From sequence record OZ035813.1: 38,979 nucleotides of DNA; one strand, 5' to 3'. Positions within the stretch are counted from its first letter, which is position 1; each line of letters starts with the position of its first letter. The notes under the pieces were generated by a model that was not told where the DNA came from, ran no database searches, and saw nothing but the letters and a program-made list of their open reading frames with translations. The DNA comes from Kayfunavirus LM33P1. This document shows, in pieces, positions 3,206 to 12,275 of the stretch. The translations under genes and the position numbers were made by a program.

Positions 3206-3368
3206 CTACTGTAGTCAAGGACTTTAGGTAACACCTTAAGAGAAGCTCACTTAGGGTCATCCTACTTATTGGTCTATCCTAGTGTCGCCTGACCTACGGT
3301 CCTTGACCTACAGTGGCTGTGGCCTACAGTAGTGACGATGAGTTTTGGACAAAAAGTTTGAGACCACA

Positions 3369-3580
3369 TCTCACACTTCAAGAACCTCAAGTCTCCCCAT
3401 AGGCCCTCTTTCAGTCCAGACCAAAGGCCCTACCCGTTACTGCTCCTTGCAGTCACAGCCAGTCTATCATAAGGTTGGACAGATGGTCAAGACTTAAGGT
3501 CAACGATAGGCTGAGGCTATGGCTTAGGGAAGGACGATAGGTTGGGACTATTGGTCTTCTTTGAGTCTCTATCTGTATAA
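3369..3580 (+). repeat. predicted direct terminal repeat / genome left end (collapsed single copy)
   Basis: begins TCTCACA like the T7 left end and ends GAGTCTCTATCTGTATAACC resembling the end of the T7 terminal repeat; boundaries approximate. Confidence 0.35.
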
Positions 3581-3700
3581 CCATAAGTCACAACCATAGG
3601 TCACAGCCTACCTCTCACAACCATAAGTCATAACCTACAGTCTCACTAACCTACAGTCTCAACCATAAGACACCAACACCTACAGTCATAGACCTACAGT
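3581..3700 (+). repeat. array of short direct repeats (CCATAAGTCA / CCTACAGTC) next to the predicted terminal repeat
   Basis: at least 9 copies of the 8-10 bp motifs within 120 bp; analogous to the CCTAAAG heptamers at the T7 left end. Confidence 0.6.
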
Positions 3701-3790
3701 TAATAGACACAAGGCTATAGACTTAAGGTCTAAGACATGTTAGTCAAAGACTATATCCTCTTACACCATGGGGCCGACGATAGCTTAATC

Positions 3791-3840
3791 AATATTATTT
3801 CAAATTACCTATTGACTATAGGTCCAGACTATGGCCTAAT
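3791..3840 (+). promoter_or_regulatory. candidate host sigma70 early promoter (A1-like) with AT-rich upstream element
   Basis: AT-rich AATATTATTTCAAATTACCT then TTGACT at 3812-3817; -10 weak (CCTAAT at 17-bp spacing or TAATAG). Confidence 0.35.
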
Positions 3841-3951
3841 AGCTTCCGTCAACACGACACGGCAACAACCGGATAGTGAAGACGCCGGTCCGGTCCGGTT
3901 AAGTAGTCAGCCTGTAAGACATACGAACAACAGGCAACCGACAGAAAGTAG

Positions 3952-3981
3952 TTGACAGGCAGTAACGACTTAAAGTAATAT
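3952..3981 (+). promoter_or_regulatory. host sigma70 early promoter (T7 A3-like)
   Basis: TTGACA, 18-bp spacer, TAATAT; downstream GTACCACAT..GAAAC..GCTCTTTAACAATCTGG resembles the T7 A3 leader. Confidence 0.6.
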
Positions 3982-4413: not shown

Positions 4414-4420
4414 GAGTGAT

Positions 4421-4468
4421 TAACTACAGGTCGTTAGACTGATAGCGGCCTGACTGATAGTCACTAAC
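4421..4468 (+). promoter_or_regulatory. early-region repeated hairpin element (copy 2)
   Basis: ACTACAGGTC..GGCCTGACTGATAGTCACTAAC upstream of ocr. Confidence 0.4.
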
Positions 4469-4496
4469 ACATAATTAACTTTGAGAGGATATAACT

Positions 4497-5000
4497 ATGG
4501 AACGTAATGCTAACGCATACTATGAGCTGCTGGCTGCAACCGTTGAGGCATTTATCGAGCGTATTCAGTACGACCACCTGACTCAAGATGACGACTACAG
4601 CGCTGCGCTGCATGAGGTCGTAGACGGTCAGGTTCCACACTATTACCACGAGATTTTTACGGTGATGGCTGCTGATGGTATAGACAACGAGTTCGAAGAC
4701 TCTGGGATGATACCTGAAACCAAGGACGTAACGCGTATCCTACAAGCTCGCATCTATGAGGCACTTTATAACGACGTGTCTAATAGCTTGGATGTAGTCT
4801 GGTTTGAGGATGAAGAGGCAGACGAAGAGGATGAATATTGGGTAGTTGACGCTAAAACAGGCGCAATAATTGTGCAAGCTGTAGCTCTTGAGGTCGCTAC
4901 TGCATGTGCCAAGGTCAACTATGTGATAGGTCGCCACCTTCAGGTGGAAGACATCAATGATAACGTAGTGTTTGACCCTGCTGCTGAGGACTGCGAGTGA
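4497..5000 (+). CDS. ocr: Ocr-like anti-restriction DNA-mimic protein (T7 gp0.3 homolog) with C-terminal extension
   Basis: residues 1-110 align with recalled T7 Ocr ([45 protein letters not shown] versus T7 [45 protein letters not shown]); acidic patch, then about 50 extra residues absent from T7 Ocr. Confidence 0.8.
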   Translation: [167 protein letters not shown]

Positions 5001-5149
5001 TGGTAACTTATGGCCTCTGCCAGCACCACGTCACTAACGCCCGGCTTATGGTCAAGACCGGGCAGTTAGACCACGATTGGGCTATGCGTCTCTTGAAAGT
5101 GGTCTACAGGAGACGCAAGCGTATACACGACAGTTTACACGCTAAGTGA
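5000..5149 (+). CDS. small basic hypothetical protein
   Basis: 49-aa ORF whose ATG overlaps the ocr stop (TGATG); ends just before a repeated hairpin element. Confidence 0.35.
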   Translation: MVTYGLCQHHVTNARLMVKTGQLDHDWAMRLLKVVYRRRKRIHDSLHAK

Positions 5150-5150
5150 C

Positions 5151-5196
5151 AGACTACAGGTCATCAATGCTGGTGGCCTGACTGATAGTCATTAAC
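5151..5196 (+). promoter_or_regulatory. early-region repeated hairpin element (copy 3)
   Basis: GACTACAGGTCA..GGCCTGACTGATAGTCATTAAC upstream of ORF 5213. Confidence 0.4.
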
Positions 5197-5212
5197 AACT
5201 GAGAGGGAAGAT

Positions 5213-5440
5213 ATGAACACAATCACTGGTGCCATAACCAAAGGTTTTCGAGCAATTTTCGGTGAAACGCAAGAAGTATGCACCAATCATAAATTCGTAC
5301 TTTCTTGCGTAGCAGGTGACGAGTTTGACGGGTTCGATAAACTGGTGGTTTGCGACCATTGCGGACAAGAGGCTATCCAACACTCAAACGGTAAATTTGA
5401 ATTAATAGACGATAGCCTTACAGAAGGAGACGGCGAGTAA
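5213..5440 (+). CDS. hypothetical early protein with four-cysteine (zinc-ribbon-like) motif
   Basis: 75 aa; Cys pairs in VCTNHKFVLSC and CDHC; SD GAGAGGGAAG upstream. Confidence 0.5.
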   Translation: MNTITGAITKGFRAIFGETQEVCTNHKFVLSCVAGDEFDGFDKLVVCDHCGQEAIQHSNGKFELIDDSLTEGDGE

Positions 5441-5572
5441 CCTAAATAAACAGGAGAGAACCAAATCATAGCTTGACCATAACACTGACGTGATGGTACT
5501 GAGTGATAGACGAGAGGTCATCGACTGATAGGTGGCCTCAAAGATTACCACTTACATTGATAGGAGTTAACT

Positions 5573-5677
5573 ATGAGCACTGCAATCATCTGGACTATCT
5601 CAGGCTTCGTAGCGTGGGGAATGTTTACTCTAGTCTGCAAACTACCGGTCCTTACTCAACTGTTATGGGGCTTATGA
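5573..5677 (+). CDS. small hydrophobic early peptide
   Basis: 34-aa ORF with SD TAGGAG upstream; TGA overlaps next ATG (ATGA). Confidence 0.3.
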   Translation: MSTAIIWTISGFVAWGMFTLVCKLPVLTQLLWGL

Positions 5678-5877
5678 CTATGAGTATCGCACTATTGATA
5701 GCCATAGGCTATGGACTTATCGCCTACGTGCTGGTGAGAGACATCAACAAAGCGCGTAAAGTCTACAAATTCAAATATGTACGTCTGGGTAGCTGGACTG
5801 TACGTCAACCTAACGGACGATTCATGCGTAACTTAGCGAACGTCTGGGATATAGCAACACTTGGGAGCAAACTGTAA
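5674..5877 (+). CDS. small membrane protein (early)
   Basis: 67 aa with N-terminal TM-like helix SIALLIAIGYGLIAYVLV; translationally coupled to neighbours by ATGA overlaps. Confidence 0.4.
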   Translation: MTMSIALLIAIGYGLIAYVLVRDINKARKVYKFKYVRLGSWTVRQPNGRFMRNLANVWDIATLGSKL

Positions 5878-6203
5878 TGAACAAGTCATACGGGATTAAT
5901 CTGGTACACTCTATGGACGCAGACATGCAAATGTTAAGCCTACTGGCTACCGGGTATCGTCACGGAACGTCAAGTCACTCCGCACGTCAACAGCAGGAGC
6001 GGGACCGGGTACTGCAAGCAAGACTCCGGGCTGAGGGCCATAAGTCCGAACTAATGTGTCTGGTGTATGGTGGACGACCAATCACTGACGATGGTAAACT
6101 TTTAGTCTCAGGCTGGAAGGCGATAGACCAACGGTCAACCATCAAGCACACGACTCATGGTGACTTCAGTCATCTCCACGCTAACCCGCTGATATGCAAG
6201 TAA
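5877..6203 (+). CDS. hypothetical early protein
   Basis: 108-aa ORF at the position where T7 carries the gp0.7 kinase; no kinase motifs seen. Confidence 0.55.
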   Translation: MNKSYGINLVHSMDADMQMLSLLATGYRHGTSSHSARQQQERDRVLQARLRAEGHKSELMCLVYGGRPITDDGKLLVSGWKAIDQRSTIKHTTHGDFSHLHANPLICK

Positions 6204-6208
6204 TTCTG

Positions 6209-6231
6209 ACTTAACTATCACTATAGGACTC
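6209..6231 (+). promoter_or_regulatory. phage RNAP promoter immediately upstream of the RNAP gene
   Basis: ACTTAACTATCACTATAGGACTC; predicted +1 at 6226. Confidence 0.7.
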
Positions 6232-6300
6232 AAGGTCTAAGACTCCAAGTGAAAGACCAAAGAGACTTTAAGTGAAAGACTAATAACAAGGACTTTAAGT

Positions 6301-8982
6301 ATGAGCGTCATCTCTATTGACAAGCACGACTTCTCTGATGTGTCGAACGCCATTGAGCCGTTTAACCTACTGGCTGACCACTACGGGCAAGACATTGCAG
6401 TCAAACAGCTTCAGCTTGAGCACGAGGCATACACTGAAGGCGAGCGACGTTTCATCAAGAACCTTGAGAGACAGACTGAGCGAGGGGAACTGGCAGACAA
6501 TCAGGTCGCCAAGCCTTTGATGCAGACTCTGGTCCCTAAGATTGCGCAAGCCGTCAAGGAGTGGCATGAAGGTCCAGACGGGAAGCTGTCAACCTCTCGT
6601 CCGAGCGTAGCGTTCACCATGTTGAGCACTGAAGAGAAGGCCGTAAAGGTCCGCTCTTTGCGCATCTCCTGCGAGTCTGCTGCGGTTATCATATTGAAGG
6701 TCATACTCTCCAAGCTGGTCAAGCCTGAAGGGATACCGATTACACCGATGGCCTCAGCGATAGGTCGCACACTTGAGGACGAAATCCGCTTCGGTCGCAT
6801 CCGTGACAAGGAGAAAGAGCACTTCAAGAAGGCGATAGCTGATAACCTGAATAAGCGGGCCGGGGCGTCCTACAAGAAAGCCTACATGCAAGCGGTCGAG
6901 GCATCCATGCTGGAGCAAGGCCAACTGGAAGATGCGTGGGGGACTTGGAGTCCGACCGAGGCTGTCCACGTTGGAATCAAGATGCTGGAGATTGTCATCC
7001 AGTCCACACAACTGGTCGAGCTTAAGCGTTACGGTGCTGGCAATGCAGCGGCTGACGTTGAGATGGTCCACCTGTCAGACTTCTGGGTCAAGAAGATGGC
7101 ACAACGAGGATTCAGCCTTGCGGGTATAGCTCCAGTCTACCAGCCTTGCGTCGTTCCACCTAAGCCGTGGACTGGTGTCGTAGGCGGTGGGTACTGGGCC
7201 AAAGGACGCAGACCATTACCACTGATTCGCTTAGGGTCTAAGTCTGCGGTAGCACGCTACGAAGACGTGTATATGCCTGAAGTCTATGACGCTGTGAACA
7301 TCATTCAGAATACACCTTGGAAAGTGAACAAGAAGGTTCTGGAAGTGGTGAACATGGTCGAGAAGCTGAACAACACGCCTATTGATGACATCCCTCAGAT
7401 GGAACCGCTGAAGCCTGAGGACTATGCGGGTGAGACTGAAGAAGAACTCAAGGCATGGAAGAAGGCTGCTGCTGGTATCTATCGCCGCGAGAAGGCCAGA
7501 CAGTCACGAAGATTGTCACTGAGCTTTATCGTCAACCAAGCGAACAAGTTCTCTCAGTTCAAGGCCATCTGGTTCCCGTATAACATGGACTGGCGCGGTC
7601 GCGTCTACGCTGTGCCGATGTTCAACCCTCAGGGTAACGACATGCAAAAGGGTCTTCTGACTCTGGCAGTCGGTAAGCCTATTGGTGCTGATGGTTTCAA
7701 ATGGCTGAAGGTCCACGGTGCAAACTGCGCGGGTGTCGATAAAGTCACCTTCGAGGAGCGTATCAAGTGGGTGGAAGATAACCACGACAACATCATGGCT
7801 GCTGCCAAGGCACCGATGGATAGCATTGAGTGGTGGGGCAAGTTAGACTCTCCGTTCTGCTTCCTAGCGTTCTGCTTCGAGTATGCTGGCGTAATGCACC
7901 ACGGCTTGTCTTACTCCTGCTCGCTGCCGATAGCGTTCGATGGGTCCTGCTCTGGGATTCAGCACTTCAGCGCTATGCTTCGCGACCACATCGGTGGACA
8001 TGCAGTAAACCTGACGCCATCCGGTAAGGTCCAAGACATCTACCGCATCGTGTCTGACCGCATTGAGGAGGAGCTTAAAGTCCTACTGGTTAACGGTACG
8101 GACAACGAGATGGTAACTCACGAGGACAAGAAAACTGGTGAGATTACCGAGCGTCTCAAGCTGGGGACACGAGAGCTTGCCCGTCAGTGGCTGACCTACG
8201 GTATGTCACGAAAGGTCACTAAGCGTTCGGTCATGACTCTGGCCTACGGGTCGAAAGAGTACGGCTTCGCAGACCAAGTTTACGAGGACATCGTGATGCC
8301 AGCGATTGACTCAGGGTCTGGCGCTATGTTCACTGAACCAAGCCAAGCATCTCGCTTCATGGCTAAGATGATTTGGGAAGCTGTGAGTGTGACCGTAGTT
8401 GCTGCGGTTGACGCGATGAAATGGCTTCAGGGTGCTGCCAAGCTGCTTGCTGCTGAAGTGAAGGACAAGAAGACTGGAGAAATCCTGAAGCCTTGTCTTC
8501 CGGTACACTGGGTCACACCTGATGGTTTCCCTGTCTGGCAGGAATACCGCAAGAAGGACACCACTCGTCTGAACCTGATGTTCTTAGGGTCATTCAACCT
8601 TCAGCCTACCGTCAACAAAGGCACGAAGAAAGAGCTGGACAAGCACAAGCAGGAGTCAGGCATTAGCCCGAACTTCGTCCACTCACAAGATGGTAGCCAC
8701 CTCCGCAAGACTGTAGTCCACACGCACCGCAAATATGGCGTGATGTCATTCGCAGTGATTCACGATAGCTTCGGGACCATCCCGGCTGACGCTGAGTATC
8801 TGTTCCGTGGAGTCCGTGAGACGATGGTCGAGACCTACCGCGACAACGATGTGCTGCTTGACTTCTACGAGCAGTTTGAATACCAGCTTCACGAGAGCCA
8901 GAGAGACAAGTTGCCTGAGCTTCCGAAGAAAGGTAAACTGAATATCGAAGACATCTTGTCTTCAGACTTTGCATTCGCTTAA
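6301..8982 (+). CDS. T7-like single-subunit DNA-directed RNA polymerase (gp1)
   Basis: 893 aa; characteristic T7 RNAP sequence throughout (for example PMFNPQGNDMQKGLLTLA, HDSFGT, AFCFEYAGV, C-terminal FAFA). Confidence 0.97.
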   Translation: MSVISIDKHDFSDVSNAIEPFNLLADHYGQDIAVKQLQLEHEAYTEGERRFIKNLERQTERGELADNQVAKPLMQTLVPKIAQAVKEWHEGPDGKLSTSRPSVAFTMLSTEEKAVKVRSLRISCESAAVIILKVILSKLVKPEGIPITPMASAIGRTLEDEIRFGRIRDKEKEHFKKAIADNLNKRAGASYKKAYMQAVEASMLEQGQLEDAWGTWSPTEAVHVGIKMLEIVIQSTQLVELKRYGAGNAAADVEMVHLSDFWVKKMAQRGFSLAGIAPVYQPCVVPPKPWTGVVGGGYWAKGRRPLPLIRLGSKSAVARYEDVYMPEVYDAVNIIQNTPWKVNKKVLEVVNMVEKLNNTPIDDIPQMEPLKPEDYAGETEEELKAWKKAAAGIYRREKARQSRRLSLSFIVNQANKFSQFKAIWFPYNMDWRGRVYAVPMFNPQGNDMQKGLLTLAVGKPIGADGFKWLKVHGANCAGVDKVTFEERIKWVEDNHDNIMAAAKAPMDSIEWWGKLDSPFCFLAFCFEYAGVMHHGLSYSCSLPIAFDGSCSGIQHFSAMLRDHIGGHAVNLTPSGKVQDIYRIVSDRIEEELKVLLVNGTDNEMVTHEDKKTGEITERLKLGTRELARQWLTYGMSRKVTKRSVMTLAYGSKEYGFADQVYEDIVMPAIDSGSGAMFTEPSQASRFMAKMIWEAVSVTVVAAVDAMKWLQGAAKLLAAEVKDKKTGEILKPCLPVHWVTPDGFPVWQEYRKKDTTRLNLMFLGSFNLQPTVNKGTKKELDKHKQESGISPNFVHSQDGSHLRKTVVHTHRKYGVMSFAVIHDSFGTIPADAEYLFRGVRETMVETYRDNDVLLDFYEQFEYQLHESQRDKLPELPKKGKLNIEDILSSDFAFA

Positions 8983-12116: not shown

Positions 12117-12275
12117 ATGACTGAGGTTGAGAAGAAATACATCGTGGAGCTTGAGGGTCGCGTTCAGTCCTTCGAGGTTCCGTTGTACGCAAAGTCTCTT
12201 GAAGAGGCTACCCTGAAGTCCCAAGAGTATGAGGACGCTGGGTTTGTGGTCGGACGGATTCGCCCTGAGACCTAA
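12117..12275 (+). CDS. host RNA polymerase inhibitor (gp2-like)
   Basis: 52 aa; [15 protein letters not shown]....[10 protein letters not shown] resembles T7 gp2 (HSFEVPIYAETLDEA...AGFEVTRVRP); stop TAA lies inside the next phage promoter. Confidence 0.7.

What the first reader, a model, noticed from the sequence alone, without database searches (positions are those of the whole stretch)
5000..6203. Early region lacks a gp0.7-type kinase and instead encodes several small unknown proteins
Between ocr and the RNAP gene T7 carries 0.4-0.7 including the 359-aa protein kinase / host-shutoff protein. Here there are only small ORFs: a 49-aa basic peptide, a 75-aa four-cysteine protein, 34- and 67-aa hydrophobic peptides and a 108-aa protein. 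Several are joined by ATGA/TGATG overlaps, indicating a co-translated early cassette of unknown host-takeover functions.
Basis: partly seen in the sequence, partly recalled or inferred. Interest (0 to 1): 0.45.

Follow-up and report, generated by a model that had tools for sequence, protein, structure and literature searches.

The report
Kinase-less early region of phage LM33_P1
This is the ordinary early "host-takeover" gene block of a published K1F-type coliphage, which does lack the T7 protein kinase; the one new point is that its 49-residue peptide is a hidden relative of T7's cell-division (FtsZ) inhibitor gp0.4.

Summary
The window is Escherichia phage LM33_P1 (Kayfunavirus, NC_031937), rotated. 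All five small ORFs exist exactly as described, with the stated stop/start overlaps. No gp0.7-type kinase is encoded in any frame.

The ORFs do not stand in for the kinase:
- ORF A (5000-5149) is a remote homolog of T7 gp0.4, the FtsZ inhibitor. It has the same position and the same 1-nt overlap with ocr, hhalign gives 94% probability, and 5 of the 6 residues needed for FtsZ inhibition are identical.
- ORF D is the T3 "gene 0.6" family.
- ORF E is a core gene restricted to Kayfunavirus-like phages.
- D and E sit next to a 244-aa gp0.7-type kinase in 7 of 22 related genomes.
- ORF B is a rare four-cysteine protein. Its cassette is 87% DNA-identical to unrelated Kagunavirus siphoviruses.

Three T7/T3-type RNase III hairpins divide the region into [ocr-A], [B] and [C-D-E]. 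ORF overlaps occur only inside these units.

Kinase absence is a known, genus-typical polymorphism. The gp0.4 link appears unrecognised: a 2022 paper states that K1F lacks gene 0.4 although it shows the same FtsZ phenotype. B, C, D and E have no established function.

The parts
4418..4472 (+). RNase III-type hairpin and leader upstream of ocr (equivalent to R0.3)
   Evidence: The fold is -23.3 kcal/mol with z -4.2. It aligns with the annotated T3 R0.3/R0.5/R1 sites and the T7 sites, with invariant AGGTC...GGCCT stem arms.
4497..5000 (+). ocr (gene 0.3) homolog, 167 aa, with a C-terminal extension of about 50 aa
   Evidence: Pfam ocr 5.2e-28 over residues 8-94. It is 58% identical to T7 gp0.3.
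5000..5149 (+). ORF A, 49 aa, basic: a remote gp0.4-family protein and the predicted FtsZ inhibitor. It is not annotated in the LM33_P1 records.
   Evidence: Reciprocal PHROG cross-hits between phrog_5058 and phrog_7202. blastp gives 36.6% identity over 41 aa to T7 gp0.4. hhalign gives probability 94.4% and E 9e-8, against 0 of 300 column shuffles. Its 1-nt overlap with the ocr stop is the same as T7 0.3/0.4.
5148..5200 (+). Second RNase III-type hairpin; a diverged copy of the pre-ocr leader
   Evidence: The fold is -18.5 kcal/mol. The stem CAGGUCAUC...GGUGGCCUG is nearly that of T7/T3 R1. The segment is 78% identical to window 4415-4469.
5193..5466 (+). Horizontally acquired cassette: the RBS and ORF B, plus a remnant of the next gene's Shine-Dalgarno from the donor context
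   Evidence: 87% nucleotide identity over 275 nt to Kagunavirus vB_EcoS_XY1. It is absent from all 80 related T7-like loci.
5213..5440 (+). ORF B, 75 aa, acidic, four invariant Cys (candidate zinc ribbon); function unknown
   Evidence: phrog_32657 at 1.7e-53. Only 5 full-length clusters (plus one partial match) were found among 5.8 billion proteins, all with C23/C32/C47/C50 invariant. It occurs in 56 phage records split between Kayfunavirus and Kagunavirus. The AF2 model is a four-strand beta model with pLDDT 55.
5467..5503 (+). 3' remnant of a displaced small gene (the phrog_33188 type, 41 aa, intact in relatives)
   Evidence: Window 5467-5590 is 88% identical to L007, where this stretch is the end of the ORF ...HHSLTITLTGGY*. 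The TTGACC at 5473 belongs to this remnant.
5500..5556 (+). Third RNase III-type hairpin, upstream of C
   Evidence: The fold is -19.8 kcal/mol. It aligns with the T3/T7 sites and is conserved in K1F and other relatives after the gp0.4-like gene.
5573..5677 (+). ORF C, 34 aa hydrophobic peptide (one predicted membrane helix). It is not annotated in the LM33_P1 records.
   Evidence: SD TAGGAG lies 6 nt upstream. Homologs of the same length and position exist in L026 (91%) and L019 (47%). No PHROG or Pfam hit.
5674..5877 (+). ORF D, 67 aa (65 aa from ATG 5680): N-terminal membrane helix plus a basic tail; T3 gene 0.6 family
   Evidence: phrog_2385 at 1.7e-32. 40% identity and E 9e-10 to T3 gp0.6. 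hhalign probability 100%. Present in 21 of 22 Kayfunavirus-like loci and upstream of the kinase in about 40 Klebsiella/T3-like loci.
5877..6203 (+). ORF E, 108 aa, conserved core at residues 27-108; a core early protein of unknown function restricted to Kayfunavirus-like phages
   Evidence: phrog_7066 at 7e-46. Present in 22 of 22 Kayfunavirus-like loci and 221 phage records. Only 12 representative clusters were found in 1.84 billion proteins. AF2 pLDDT is 61 with a helical model, and there is no PDB match.
6205..6227 (+). Phage-RNAP promoter directly upstream of the RNA polymerase gene; it marks the end of the small-ORF block
   Evidence: It matches the consensus cTaAACTATCACTATAGG. The core CACTATAGG occurs 9 times on the + strand against 0.25 expected. 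It is conserved in relatives including K1F.
6301..8982 (+). T7-type single-subunit RNA polymerase (gene 1), 893 aa
   Evidence: 58-99% identity to 80 related loci.
12117..12275 (+). gp2-type inhibitor of host RNA polymerase, available for kinase-independent host shutoff
   Evidence: Pfam RNA_pol_inhib PF16857 at 1.5e-19.

Best explanation
Window 5000-6203 is the class I (early) accessory block of the K1F-type T7-like phage LM33_P1.

Inferred by analogy with T7/T3:
- Host RNA polymerase transcribes it rightward from the left-end promoters.
- RNase III cuts the transcript at three conserved hairpins into three messages: [ocr + A], [B] and [C + D + E, running on towards gene 1].
- Within a message the genes are translationally coupled through 1-4 nt stop/start overlaps.

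Shown at sequence level:
- A is a diverged gp0.4.
- D is the T3 gp0.6 family.
- E is a core gene restricted to Kayfunavirus-like phages.
- B is a rare 4-Cys gene carried on a 274-bp cassette shared with Kagunavirus siphoviruses. That cassette, fused to a copy of the ocr leader, replaced most of an older small gene.

Inferred function:
- A binds FtsZ through the conserved V11/V18/M29/L32/Y36 face and blocks Z-ring assembly. This would be the unidentified division inhibitor reported for K1F.
- C and D are small inner-membrane proteins. E and B are soluble host-directed factors. Their targets are unknown.
- B's rarity, mobility and first-gene position in Kagunavirus fit an accessory, strain-specific host-takeover or anti-defence role.

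The kinase is simply absent. It belongs to an alternative left-arm module (SAMase + 244-aa kinase) carried by other Kayfunavirus-like phages. Host transcription shutoff can rely on the gp2 homolog.
For: Identity: the region is 100% identical to LM33_P1 over 2001 bases, and the whole window equals the record rotated by 3376 bases except for 12 mismatched bases.

gp0.4 link:
- Reciprocal PHROG hits.
- hhalign probability 94.4%, E 9e-8, score 36.3, against shuffles with mean 8.8 and maximum 22.3.
- Synteny, and the same 1-nt overlap with ocr as in T7.
- Of the six T7 gp0.4 residues whose substitution abolishes FtsZ inhibition (PMC13423816), five are identical in A. All six aligned positions, including H25 in place of W28, are invariant or nearly so across 15 A-family sequences. 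The hypergeometric P is 0.014.
- K1F infection gives the gp0.4-like multi-ring filament phenotype although BLAST finds no gene 0.4 (PMC9372555). K1F encodes the same 49-aa protein (phrog_5058 at 1.2e-24).

RNase III sites: the folds and the alignment to annotated T3 sites.

D and E.

B cassette and its junctions.

Kinase absence and polymorphism.

gp2 homolog.
Against: - No expression, processing or protein data exist for this phage, so transcription, RNase III cleavage and translational coupling are all inferred by analogy.
- A differs from T7 gp0.4 at W28 (H25 here). W28L abolishes FtsZ binding in T7.
- A is strongly basic (pI 10.6) whereas gp0.4 is acidic (pI 4.7). The homology covers only 40 columns with low alignment diversity (Neff 1.3).
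- For B, C, D and E no homolog with a known function was found by any method. Their proposed roles rest on context only.
- The AF2 models of B and E are low confidence (pLDDT 55 and 61).
Confidence: 0.72

Rival explanations
1. A shares ancestry with gp0.4 but no longer targets FtsZ. The change of charge and the loss of W28 reflect retargeting to another host protein, and the K1F division block is caused by a different gene, for example one of the membrane peptides C or D, or E.
For: W28 of T7 gp0.4 aligns with His in every A-family member, and W28L/W28A abolish FtsZ binding in T7. pI is 10.6 for A against 4.7 for gp0.4. PHROGs keeps the two groups as separate families.
Against: Five of the six functionally required interface residues are identical and are invariant or nearly so in the A family. 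K1F, which carries A but not B or C, shows the gp0.4-like FtsZ phenotype. The inter-helix loop that holds W28 is one residue longer in A, so the contact could be made differently.
Confidence: 0.25
2. The small ORFs are functional replacements for the missing kinase and host-shutoff protein, forming a dedicated alternative host-takeover cassette.
For: They occupy the interval that holds 0.4-0.7 in T7. No kinase exists elsewhere in the genome.
Against: D and E lie immediately downstream of a 244-aa gp0.7-type kinase (phrog_15752 at 8e-112) in 7 of 22 Kayfunavirus-like genomes. D lies upstream of the kinase in about 40 Klebsiella/T3-like genomes. Profile comparison of A-E with gp0.7, including its C-terminal shutoff domain, finds nothing. 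A gp2 homolog is present.
Confidence: 0.08
3. Some of the ORFs, most plausibly the unannotated A and C, are not translated and are conserved only as part of RNA leader or processing elements.
For: A and C are missing from both LM33_P1 database records. Their codon-position substitution bias is weak, 114/56/108 for A and 16/13/23 for C. C has no PHROG family.
Against: Both have good Shine-Dalgarno sequences and tight coupling to neighbouring genes. Both are annotated in sister genomes. C keeps its exact length and hydrophobic pattern at only 47% identity. A has profile-level homology to a protein of proven function.
Confidence: 0.08

Closest known systems
Early (class I) region of phage K1F and other Kayfunavirus (NC_007456: 0.3, 49-aa ORF, 55-aa ORF, '0.6', gene 1)
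   Same: Same order: ocr, then the 49-aa gp0.4-like ORF overlapping the ocr stop, an RNase III hairpin, the D ('0.6') gene, and a phage promoter before gene 1. No kinase is annotated.
   Different: LM33_P1 carries B and C in the variable slot where K1F has a 55-aa membrane protein (phrog_7319). The K1F record does not annotate E, although tblastn finds it.
T7 gp0.4, the 51-aa FtsZ inhibitor (Kiro et al. 2013 as cited in PMC9372555; PMC13423816)
   Same: Similar size, and the same position with a 1-nt overlap after gene 0.3. The shared motif is YGL..V.....MV..G....AM..LK..Y...K. The FtsZ-contact residues V15, V22, M32, L35 and Y39 are conserved.
   Different: About 36% identity, so BLAST against databases misses it. 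W28 is replaced by His. A is basic rather than acidic. None of the five residues that contact the CapRel(Ebc) sensor (A12, T14, L16, S19, R23) is identical. Function has not been tested.
T7 early region genes 0.3-0.7 with RNase III sites R0.3, R0.5 and R1
   Same: ocr comes first and small overlapping genes follow. RNase III hairpins with the same stem sequence lie between gene groups, and gene 1 is downstream.
   Different: There is no gene 0.7. There are no homologs of T7 0.5 or 0.6A/B. There is no R1 site or E. coli promoter C before gene 1; a phage promoter sits there instead.
T3 'gene 0.6 protein' (NP_523298, 65 aa), phrog_2385
   Same: D is 40% identical to it, with the same N-terminal hydrophobic helix and the basic tail motif TVR..NGRF.
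   Different: In T3 and the Klebsiella phages it precedes the kinase. Here it precedes E and gene 1. No function is known for any member.

Membership tests
T7 gp0.7 protein kinase / host shutoff protein | Sequence homology to the gp0.7 kinase domain (PHROGs 2828, 15752, 18305) anywhere in the genome | tested here: not met
   tblastn gives a best E of 0.71. Unfiltered hmmsearch with three kinase HMMs against six-frame segments gives a best E of 0.4-1.2. As a positive control, the same queries find kinases in about 55 related loci.
T7 gp0.7 protein kinase / host shutoff protein | An ORF of at least 240 aa between the ocr block and gene 1 | tested here: not met
   The largest ORF in 5000-6300 is 108 aa (124 aa if counted from an upstream GTG in the D frame).
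T7 gp0.4 family (FtsZ inhibitor), tested for ORF A | Detectable sequence homology to T7 gp0.4 | tested here: met
   Reciprocal PHROG cross-hits at 4.9e-4 and 9e-5. hhalign probability 94.4% and E 9e-8, with 0 of 300 shuffles reaching the score.
T7 gp0.4 family (FtsZ inhibitor), tested for ORF A | A protein of about 50 aa encoded immediately after gene 0.3 and coupled to it | tested here: met
   The ATG at 5000 shares a base with the ocr stop. T7 0.3 ends and 0.4 starts at base 1278 in the same way.
T7 gp0.4 family (FtsZ inhibitor), tested for ORF A | Conservation of the residues required for FtsZ inhibition (V15, V22, W28, M32, L35, Y39) | tested here: inconclusive
   Five of six are identical (V11, V18, M29, L32, Y36). 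W28 aligns with H25.
T7 gp0.4 family (FtsZ inhibitor), tested for ORF A | Two antiparallel helices that bind FtsZ and block Z-ring assembly | not testable with these tools
The only support is indirect: the K1F phenotype.
T3 gene 0.6 family (phrog_2385), tested for ORF D | Sequence homology, with the architecture of an N-terminal membrane helix plus a basic tail | tested here: met
   blastp E 9e-10. hhalign probability 100%. The Kyte-Doolittle 19-residue window scores 2.35 at residue 3, and pI is 10.8.
T7 gp0.5 / gp0.6A/B, tested for ORFs C, D and E | Sequence or profile homology | tested here: not met
   No hhalign pair exceeds 20% probability. The PHROGs differ.
T7/T3 RNase III processing sites | An intergenic hairpin with the conserved AGGTC...GGCCT stem and flanking lower stem | tested here: met
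   Folds and the alignment with annotated T3 R0.3/R0.5/R1.
T7/T3 RNase III processing sites | Cleavage by host RNase III in vivo | not testable with these tools
   Requires RNA end mapping.
Zinc-ribbon proteins, tested for ORF B | Four conserved Cys at beta-hairpin knuckles, and the zinc-ribbon fold | tested here: inconclusive
   The four Cys are invariant in all 6 sequences. The AF2 model shows 4 strands with CxxC in a turn but has pLDDT 55. Foldseek against PDB gives nothing below E 0.8.

The most novel reading that the evidence does not exclude
The 49-aa ORF A family is found after ocr, or after the 174-aa protein that replaces ocr in some relatives, in about 180 phage records including K1F. 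It may be the "missing" FtsZ inhibitor of K1F-type phages. On this reading it is a gp0.4 variant that keeps the FtsZ-binding face but has replaced every residue read by the CapRel(Ebc) immune sensor, making it an immune-evasive form of a known trigger. Separately, B would be a mobile zinc-binding early protein exchanged between podoviruses and siphoviruses that infect extraintestinal pathogenic E. coli.
Probability: 0.5. Interest if true: 0.5.

Novelty: new member of a known kind. Interest (0 to 1): 0.33.

Why it matters
The kinase absence is not news. K1F-type genomes have been annotated without gene 0.7 for years, and the genus is polymorphic for it.

The useful result is the gp0.4 link. A 2022 study reported that K1F blocks FtsZ like T7 but "lacks the 0.4 gene", and it proposed a novel inhibitor (PMC9372555). 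This analysis names a specific, easily testable candidate that is present in LM33_P1, a phage studied for therapy against ST131 E. coli.

The link also offers a natural variant for separating FtsZ binding from CapRel sensing.

The B cassette is a clean example of an early gene being exchanged between unrelated lytic phages, with one junction lying in a duplicated RNase III leader.

Tried and rejected
- Pfam and NCBIfam scans of A-E gave nothing above threshold.
- T7 gp0.7 itself has no Pfam family. A Pfam Pkinase scan would therefore not have been a valid test, and custom HMMs were used instead.
- AlphaFold2 models of E (pLDDT 61) and B (pLDDT 55) were too weak. Foldseek against PDB gave no hit below E 0.8.
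- Profile searches of PDB sequences with A, B and E found nothing.
- A profile search of 1.84 billion representatives with E found only 12 clusters and no informative relative.
- I tested whether E or D corresponds to the C-terminal shutoff domain of gp0.7, or to T7 0.5/0.6 or T3 0.65. hhalign found nothing.
- I considered a sigma-70 promoter at 5473 (TTGACC). I rejected it because the consensus scan does not call it and the sequence is the 3' remnant of a displaced gene.
- I considered the 174-aa protein that replaces ocr in some relatives to be a mini-kinase, because it has a GKGAF motif and some records call it "protein kinase". hhalign probability to gp0.7 is 0.8% and its PHROG has unknown function, so this is not supported.
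- I searched the supplements of the accessory-gene screen of Silas et al. for peptides from A, B, D and E, and found no match.
- The K1F genome paper (PMC1317022) is not held in the library. Prior knowledge of kinase absence in K1F therefore rests on the RefSeq annotation.
Full report
**Identity of the window.** The 2-kb stretch around the finding is 100% identical to Escherichia phage LM33_P1 (Kayfunavirus, Studiervirinae; LT594300 / NC_031937). The whole window equals that 38,979-bp record rotated so that record base 1 is window base 3377. The only difference is 12 mismatched bases at window 8267-8285. More than 220 phage records share this region at 80-100% identity.

**Observation.**
- ocr lies at 4497-5000 (Pfam ocr 5e-28).
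- A is 5000-5149, 49 aa, pI 10.6.
- B is 5213-5440, 75 aa, with Cys at 23/32/47/50.
- C is 5573-5677, 34 aa, hydrophobic.
- D is 5674-5877, 67 aa. Relatives mostly start two codons later, at 5680.
- E is 5877-6203, 108 aa.
- The RNA polymerase gene is 6301-8982.
- The overlaps are TGATG (ocr/A), ATGA (C/D) and TAATG (D/E).

All five ORFs have Shine-Dalgarno-like sequences. A, B, D and E each match a PHROG family at 1e-25 to 1e-53, all labelled "unknown function". C has no family, but it recurs with the same length and position at 91% and 47% identity. Substitutions against relatives favour codon position 3 for B, D and E, and less clearly for A and C.

**No kinase.**
- T7 gp0.7 finds homologs in 913 phage records but nothing in the window (best E 0.71).
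- T7 gp0.7 itself does not match any Pfam family, so I built my own HMMs. They came from about 110 gp0.7 homologs, from the 244-aa kinases of close relatives, and from a 174-aa kinase-annotated protein.
- I ran these unfiltered against all 662 stop-to-stop segments of the six frames. The best result was E 0.4-1.2 at under 6 bits.
- The RefSeq gene list leaves no unassigned ORF of kinase size.

**The ORFs do not replace the kinase.** I fetched 80 loci through the RNA polymerase and mapped the early genes.
- Among 22 Kayfunavirus-like genomes (21 with RNAP 88-99% identical to the window's, plus L019 at 79%), E is present in 22 and D in 21. Both always lie just before gene 1.
- A is present in 15, C in 3, and B only in the window.
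- Seven of these genomes carry a 244-aa gp0.7-type kinase (phrog_15752 at 8e-112). It usually sits with a T3-type SAMase in place of ocr and A, and it lies directly upstream of D and E.
- In about 40 Klebsiella or T3-like genomes the D homolog lies just upstream of the kinase.
- Kinase presence is therefore a module-level polymorphism. LM33_P1 and K1F carry the kinase-less ocr + A arm.
- A gp2-type host RNA polymerase inhibitor is present at 12117-12275 (PF16857 at 1.5e-19). From established T7 biology, gp0.7 is non-essential and gp2 is an inhibitor of host RNA polymerase.

**ORF A is a hidden gp0.4.**
- blastp aligns A to T7 gp0.4 at 36.6% identity over 41 residues.
- A hits phrog_5058 (4e-25) and, weakly, phrog_7202 (5e-4). 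T7 gp0.4 hits phrog_7202 (5e-33) and, weakly, phrog_5058 (9e-5).
- An alignment of 15 A-family sequences compared with 10 gp0.4-family sequences gives hhalign probability 94.4%, E 9e-8 and score 36.3.
- 300 column shuffles gave a mean of 8.8 and a maximum of 22.3. The reversed control scored 7.7.
- Both genes start on the last base of the ocr stop codon.
- PMC13423816 shows that V15A, V22A, W28A/L, M32A, L35A/P and Y39A abolish FtsZ inhibition by gp0.4. In the alignment these map to V11, V18, H25, M29, L32 and Y36 of A. Five of six are identical. All six positions, including H25, are invariant or nearly so across the A family. The chance of at least 5 of 6 falling among the 14 identical columns out of 40 is 0.014.
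- The five residues that contact the CapRel(Ebc) sensor (A12, T14, L16, S19, R23) map to Q8, H10, T12, R15 and K19. None is identical.
- PMC9372555 reports that K1F produces the same multi-ring filament FtsZ phenotype as T7. It states that K1F "lacks the 0.4 genes", that BLAST found no similarity, and that the inhibitor is unknown.
- K1F encodes the same 49-aa protein right after ocr (phrog_5058 at 1.2e-24). tblastn with A does not reach T7, which explains why the link was missed.
- I found no later paper that identifies the K1F inhibitor.
- Caveats: W28 is not conserved, A is basic whereas gp0.4 is acidic, and function is untested.

**ORF D.** D is 40% identical to the T3 "gene 0.6 protein" (E 9e-10; hhalign probability 100%). 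It has a membrane helix plus a basic tail. It is unrelated to T7 0.6. No member has a known function, and all 117 database relatives are "hypothetical". D is frameshifted by an extra A in the 99.5%-identical phage MZ234021. This is either dispensability or a sequencing error.

**ORF E.** E is restricted to Kayfunavirus-like phages. It occurs in 221 phage records and 144 protein clusters, all unnamed, and in only 12 representatives among 1.84 billion proteins. The conserved core is residues 27-108, ending in DDGKLLVSGWKAIDQRS.IKHTT.GDFSHLHANPLICK. The N-terminus varies between versions of 83, 108, 130 and 139 aa.

**ORF B.**
- Only 5 full-length protein clusters (plus one partial match) exist in 5.8 billion sequences, and all four Cys are invariant.
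- In the phage collection B occurs in 56 records. These split between Kayfunavirus (the LM33_P1 species and a few others) and 42-46 kb Kagunavirus siphoviruses of E. coli, several of which were isolated on K1 or uropathogenic strains.
- In Kagunavirus XY1 it is the first gene of an operon divergent from a dicA-like repressor.
- Window 5193-5466 is 87% nucleotide-identical to XY1. The match includes B's RBS and, downstream, the Shine-Dalgarno of the next XY1 gene, which has no ATG after it in LM33_P1.
- Left of the cassette, 5145-5197 is a 78% copy of the phage's own pre-ocr leader.
- Right of it, 5467-5503 is the 3' end of a 41-aa gene (phrog_33188) that is intact in relatives.
- B is therefore a recent horizontal replacement within the variable slot between the gp0.4-like gene and D.

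**RNA layout.** Three hairpins (4418-4472, 5148-5200 and 5500-5556) fold stably. They align with the annotated RNase III sites of T3 and the corresponding T7 sequences, sharing invariant AGGTC...GGCCT arms. They delimit [ocr-A], [B] and [C-D-E]. Every ORF overlap lies inside one unit. Unlike T7 and T3, there is no R1 hairpin or E. coli promoter C before gene 1. Instead a full phage-type promoter sits at 6205-6227.

**Verdict.** The added value is the assignment of A to the gp0.4 family, which carries a testable prediction. B, C, D and E still have no known function.

Noticed in passing
window 6205-6227 (and 6228-6300): A full phage-RNAP promoter (TCTGACTTAACTATCACTATAGG) sits directly upstream of the RNA polymerase gene itself, where T7 and T3 have the RNase III site R1 and E. 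coli promoter C. This implies positive autoregulation of gene 1. It is present in all 22 Kayfunavirus-like loci including K1F. Five loci have the single-base variant CACTAAAGG although their other promoters keep CACTATAGG. The leader also holds two copies of AAGTGAAAGAC.
   Followed up: partly
window 8267-8285: The window differs from NC_031937.1 by 12 mismatches in a 19-nt stretch. In the window the RNA polymerase is one intact 893-aa ORF, as in relatives. The RefSeq record has a stop there and annotates two CDSs.
   Followed up: partly
window 4497-5000: GenBank LT594300 labels the ocr gene "Phage protein kinase", which is a misannotation. The ocr here is 167 aa. The Pfam ocr domain covers only residues 8-94, and about 50 extra residues follow the acidic tail. 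Relatives have either 110-114 aa or 166-169 aa forms.
   Followed up: no
L009, L011, L013, L014, L025 (e.g. L014:1138-1662): Five relatives carry a 174-aa protein (phrog_11084, unknown function) in place of ocr, directly upstream of the gp0.4-like gene. It has a kinase-like G-loop motif (IGKGAF...K) and is called "protein kinase" in some GenBank records. It shows no significant similarity to gp0.7.
   Followed up: partly
L009:3152-3574, L021, L023, L024: An endonuclease VII-type HNH gene (140 aa, phrog_2633 at 6e-42) is inserted between D and E in four relatives. This is probably a homing endonuclease.
   Followed up: no
L002:1775-1985 (MZ234021.1): In a 99.5%-identical phage, gene D is frameshifted by one extra A in an A-run and is annotated as 39 aa. 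This is either real loss of D or a homopolymer sequencing error.
   Followed up: partly
window 3737-3955 and 3303-3981: Sigma-70-like sites lie upstream of the early genes: TTGACA-18-TAATAT at 3952-3981, TTGACC-16-TACAGT at 3303-3330, and TTGACT at 3812. They may be the A1-A3 equivalents. Two of them lie within or at the end of the manually added 72-aa "gp0.1" ORF, which raises doubt about that ORF.
   Followed up: no
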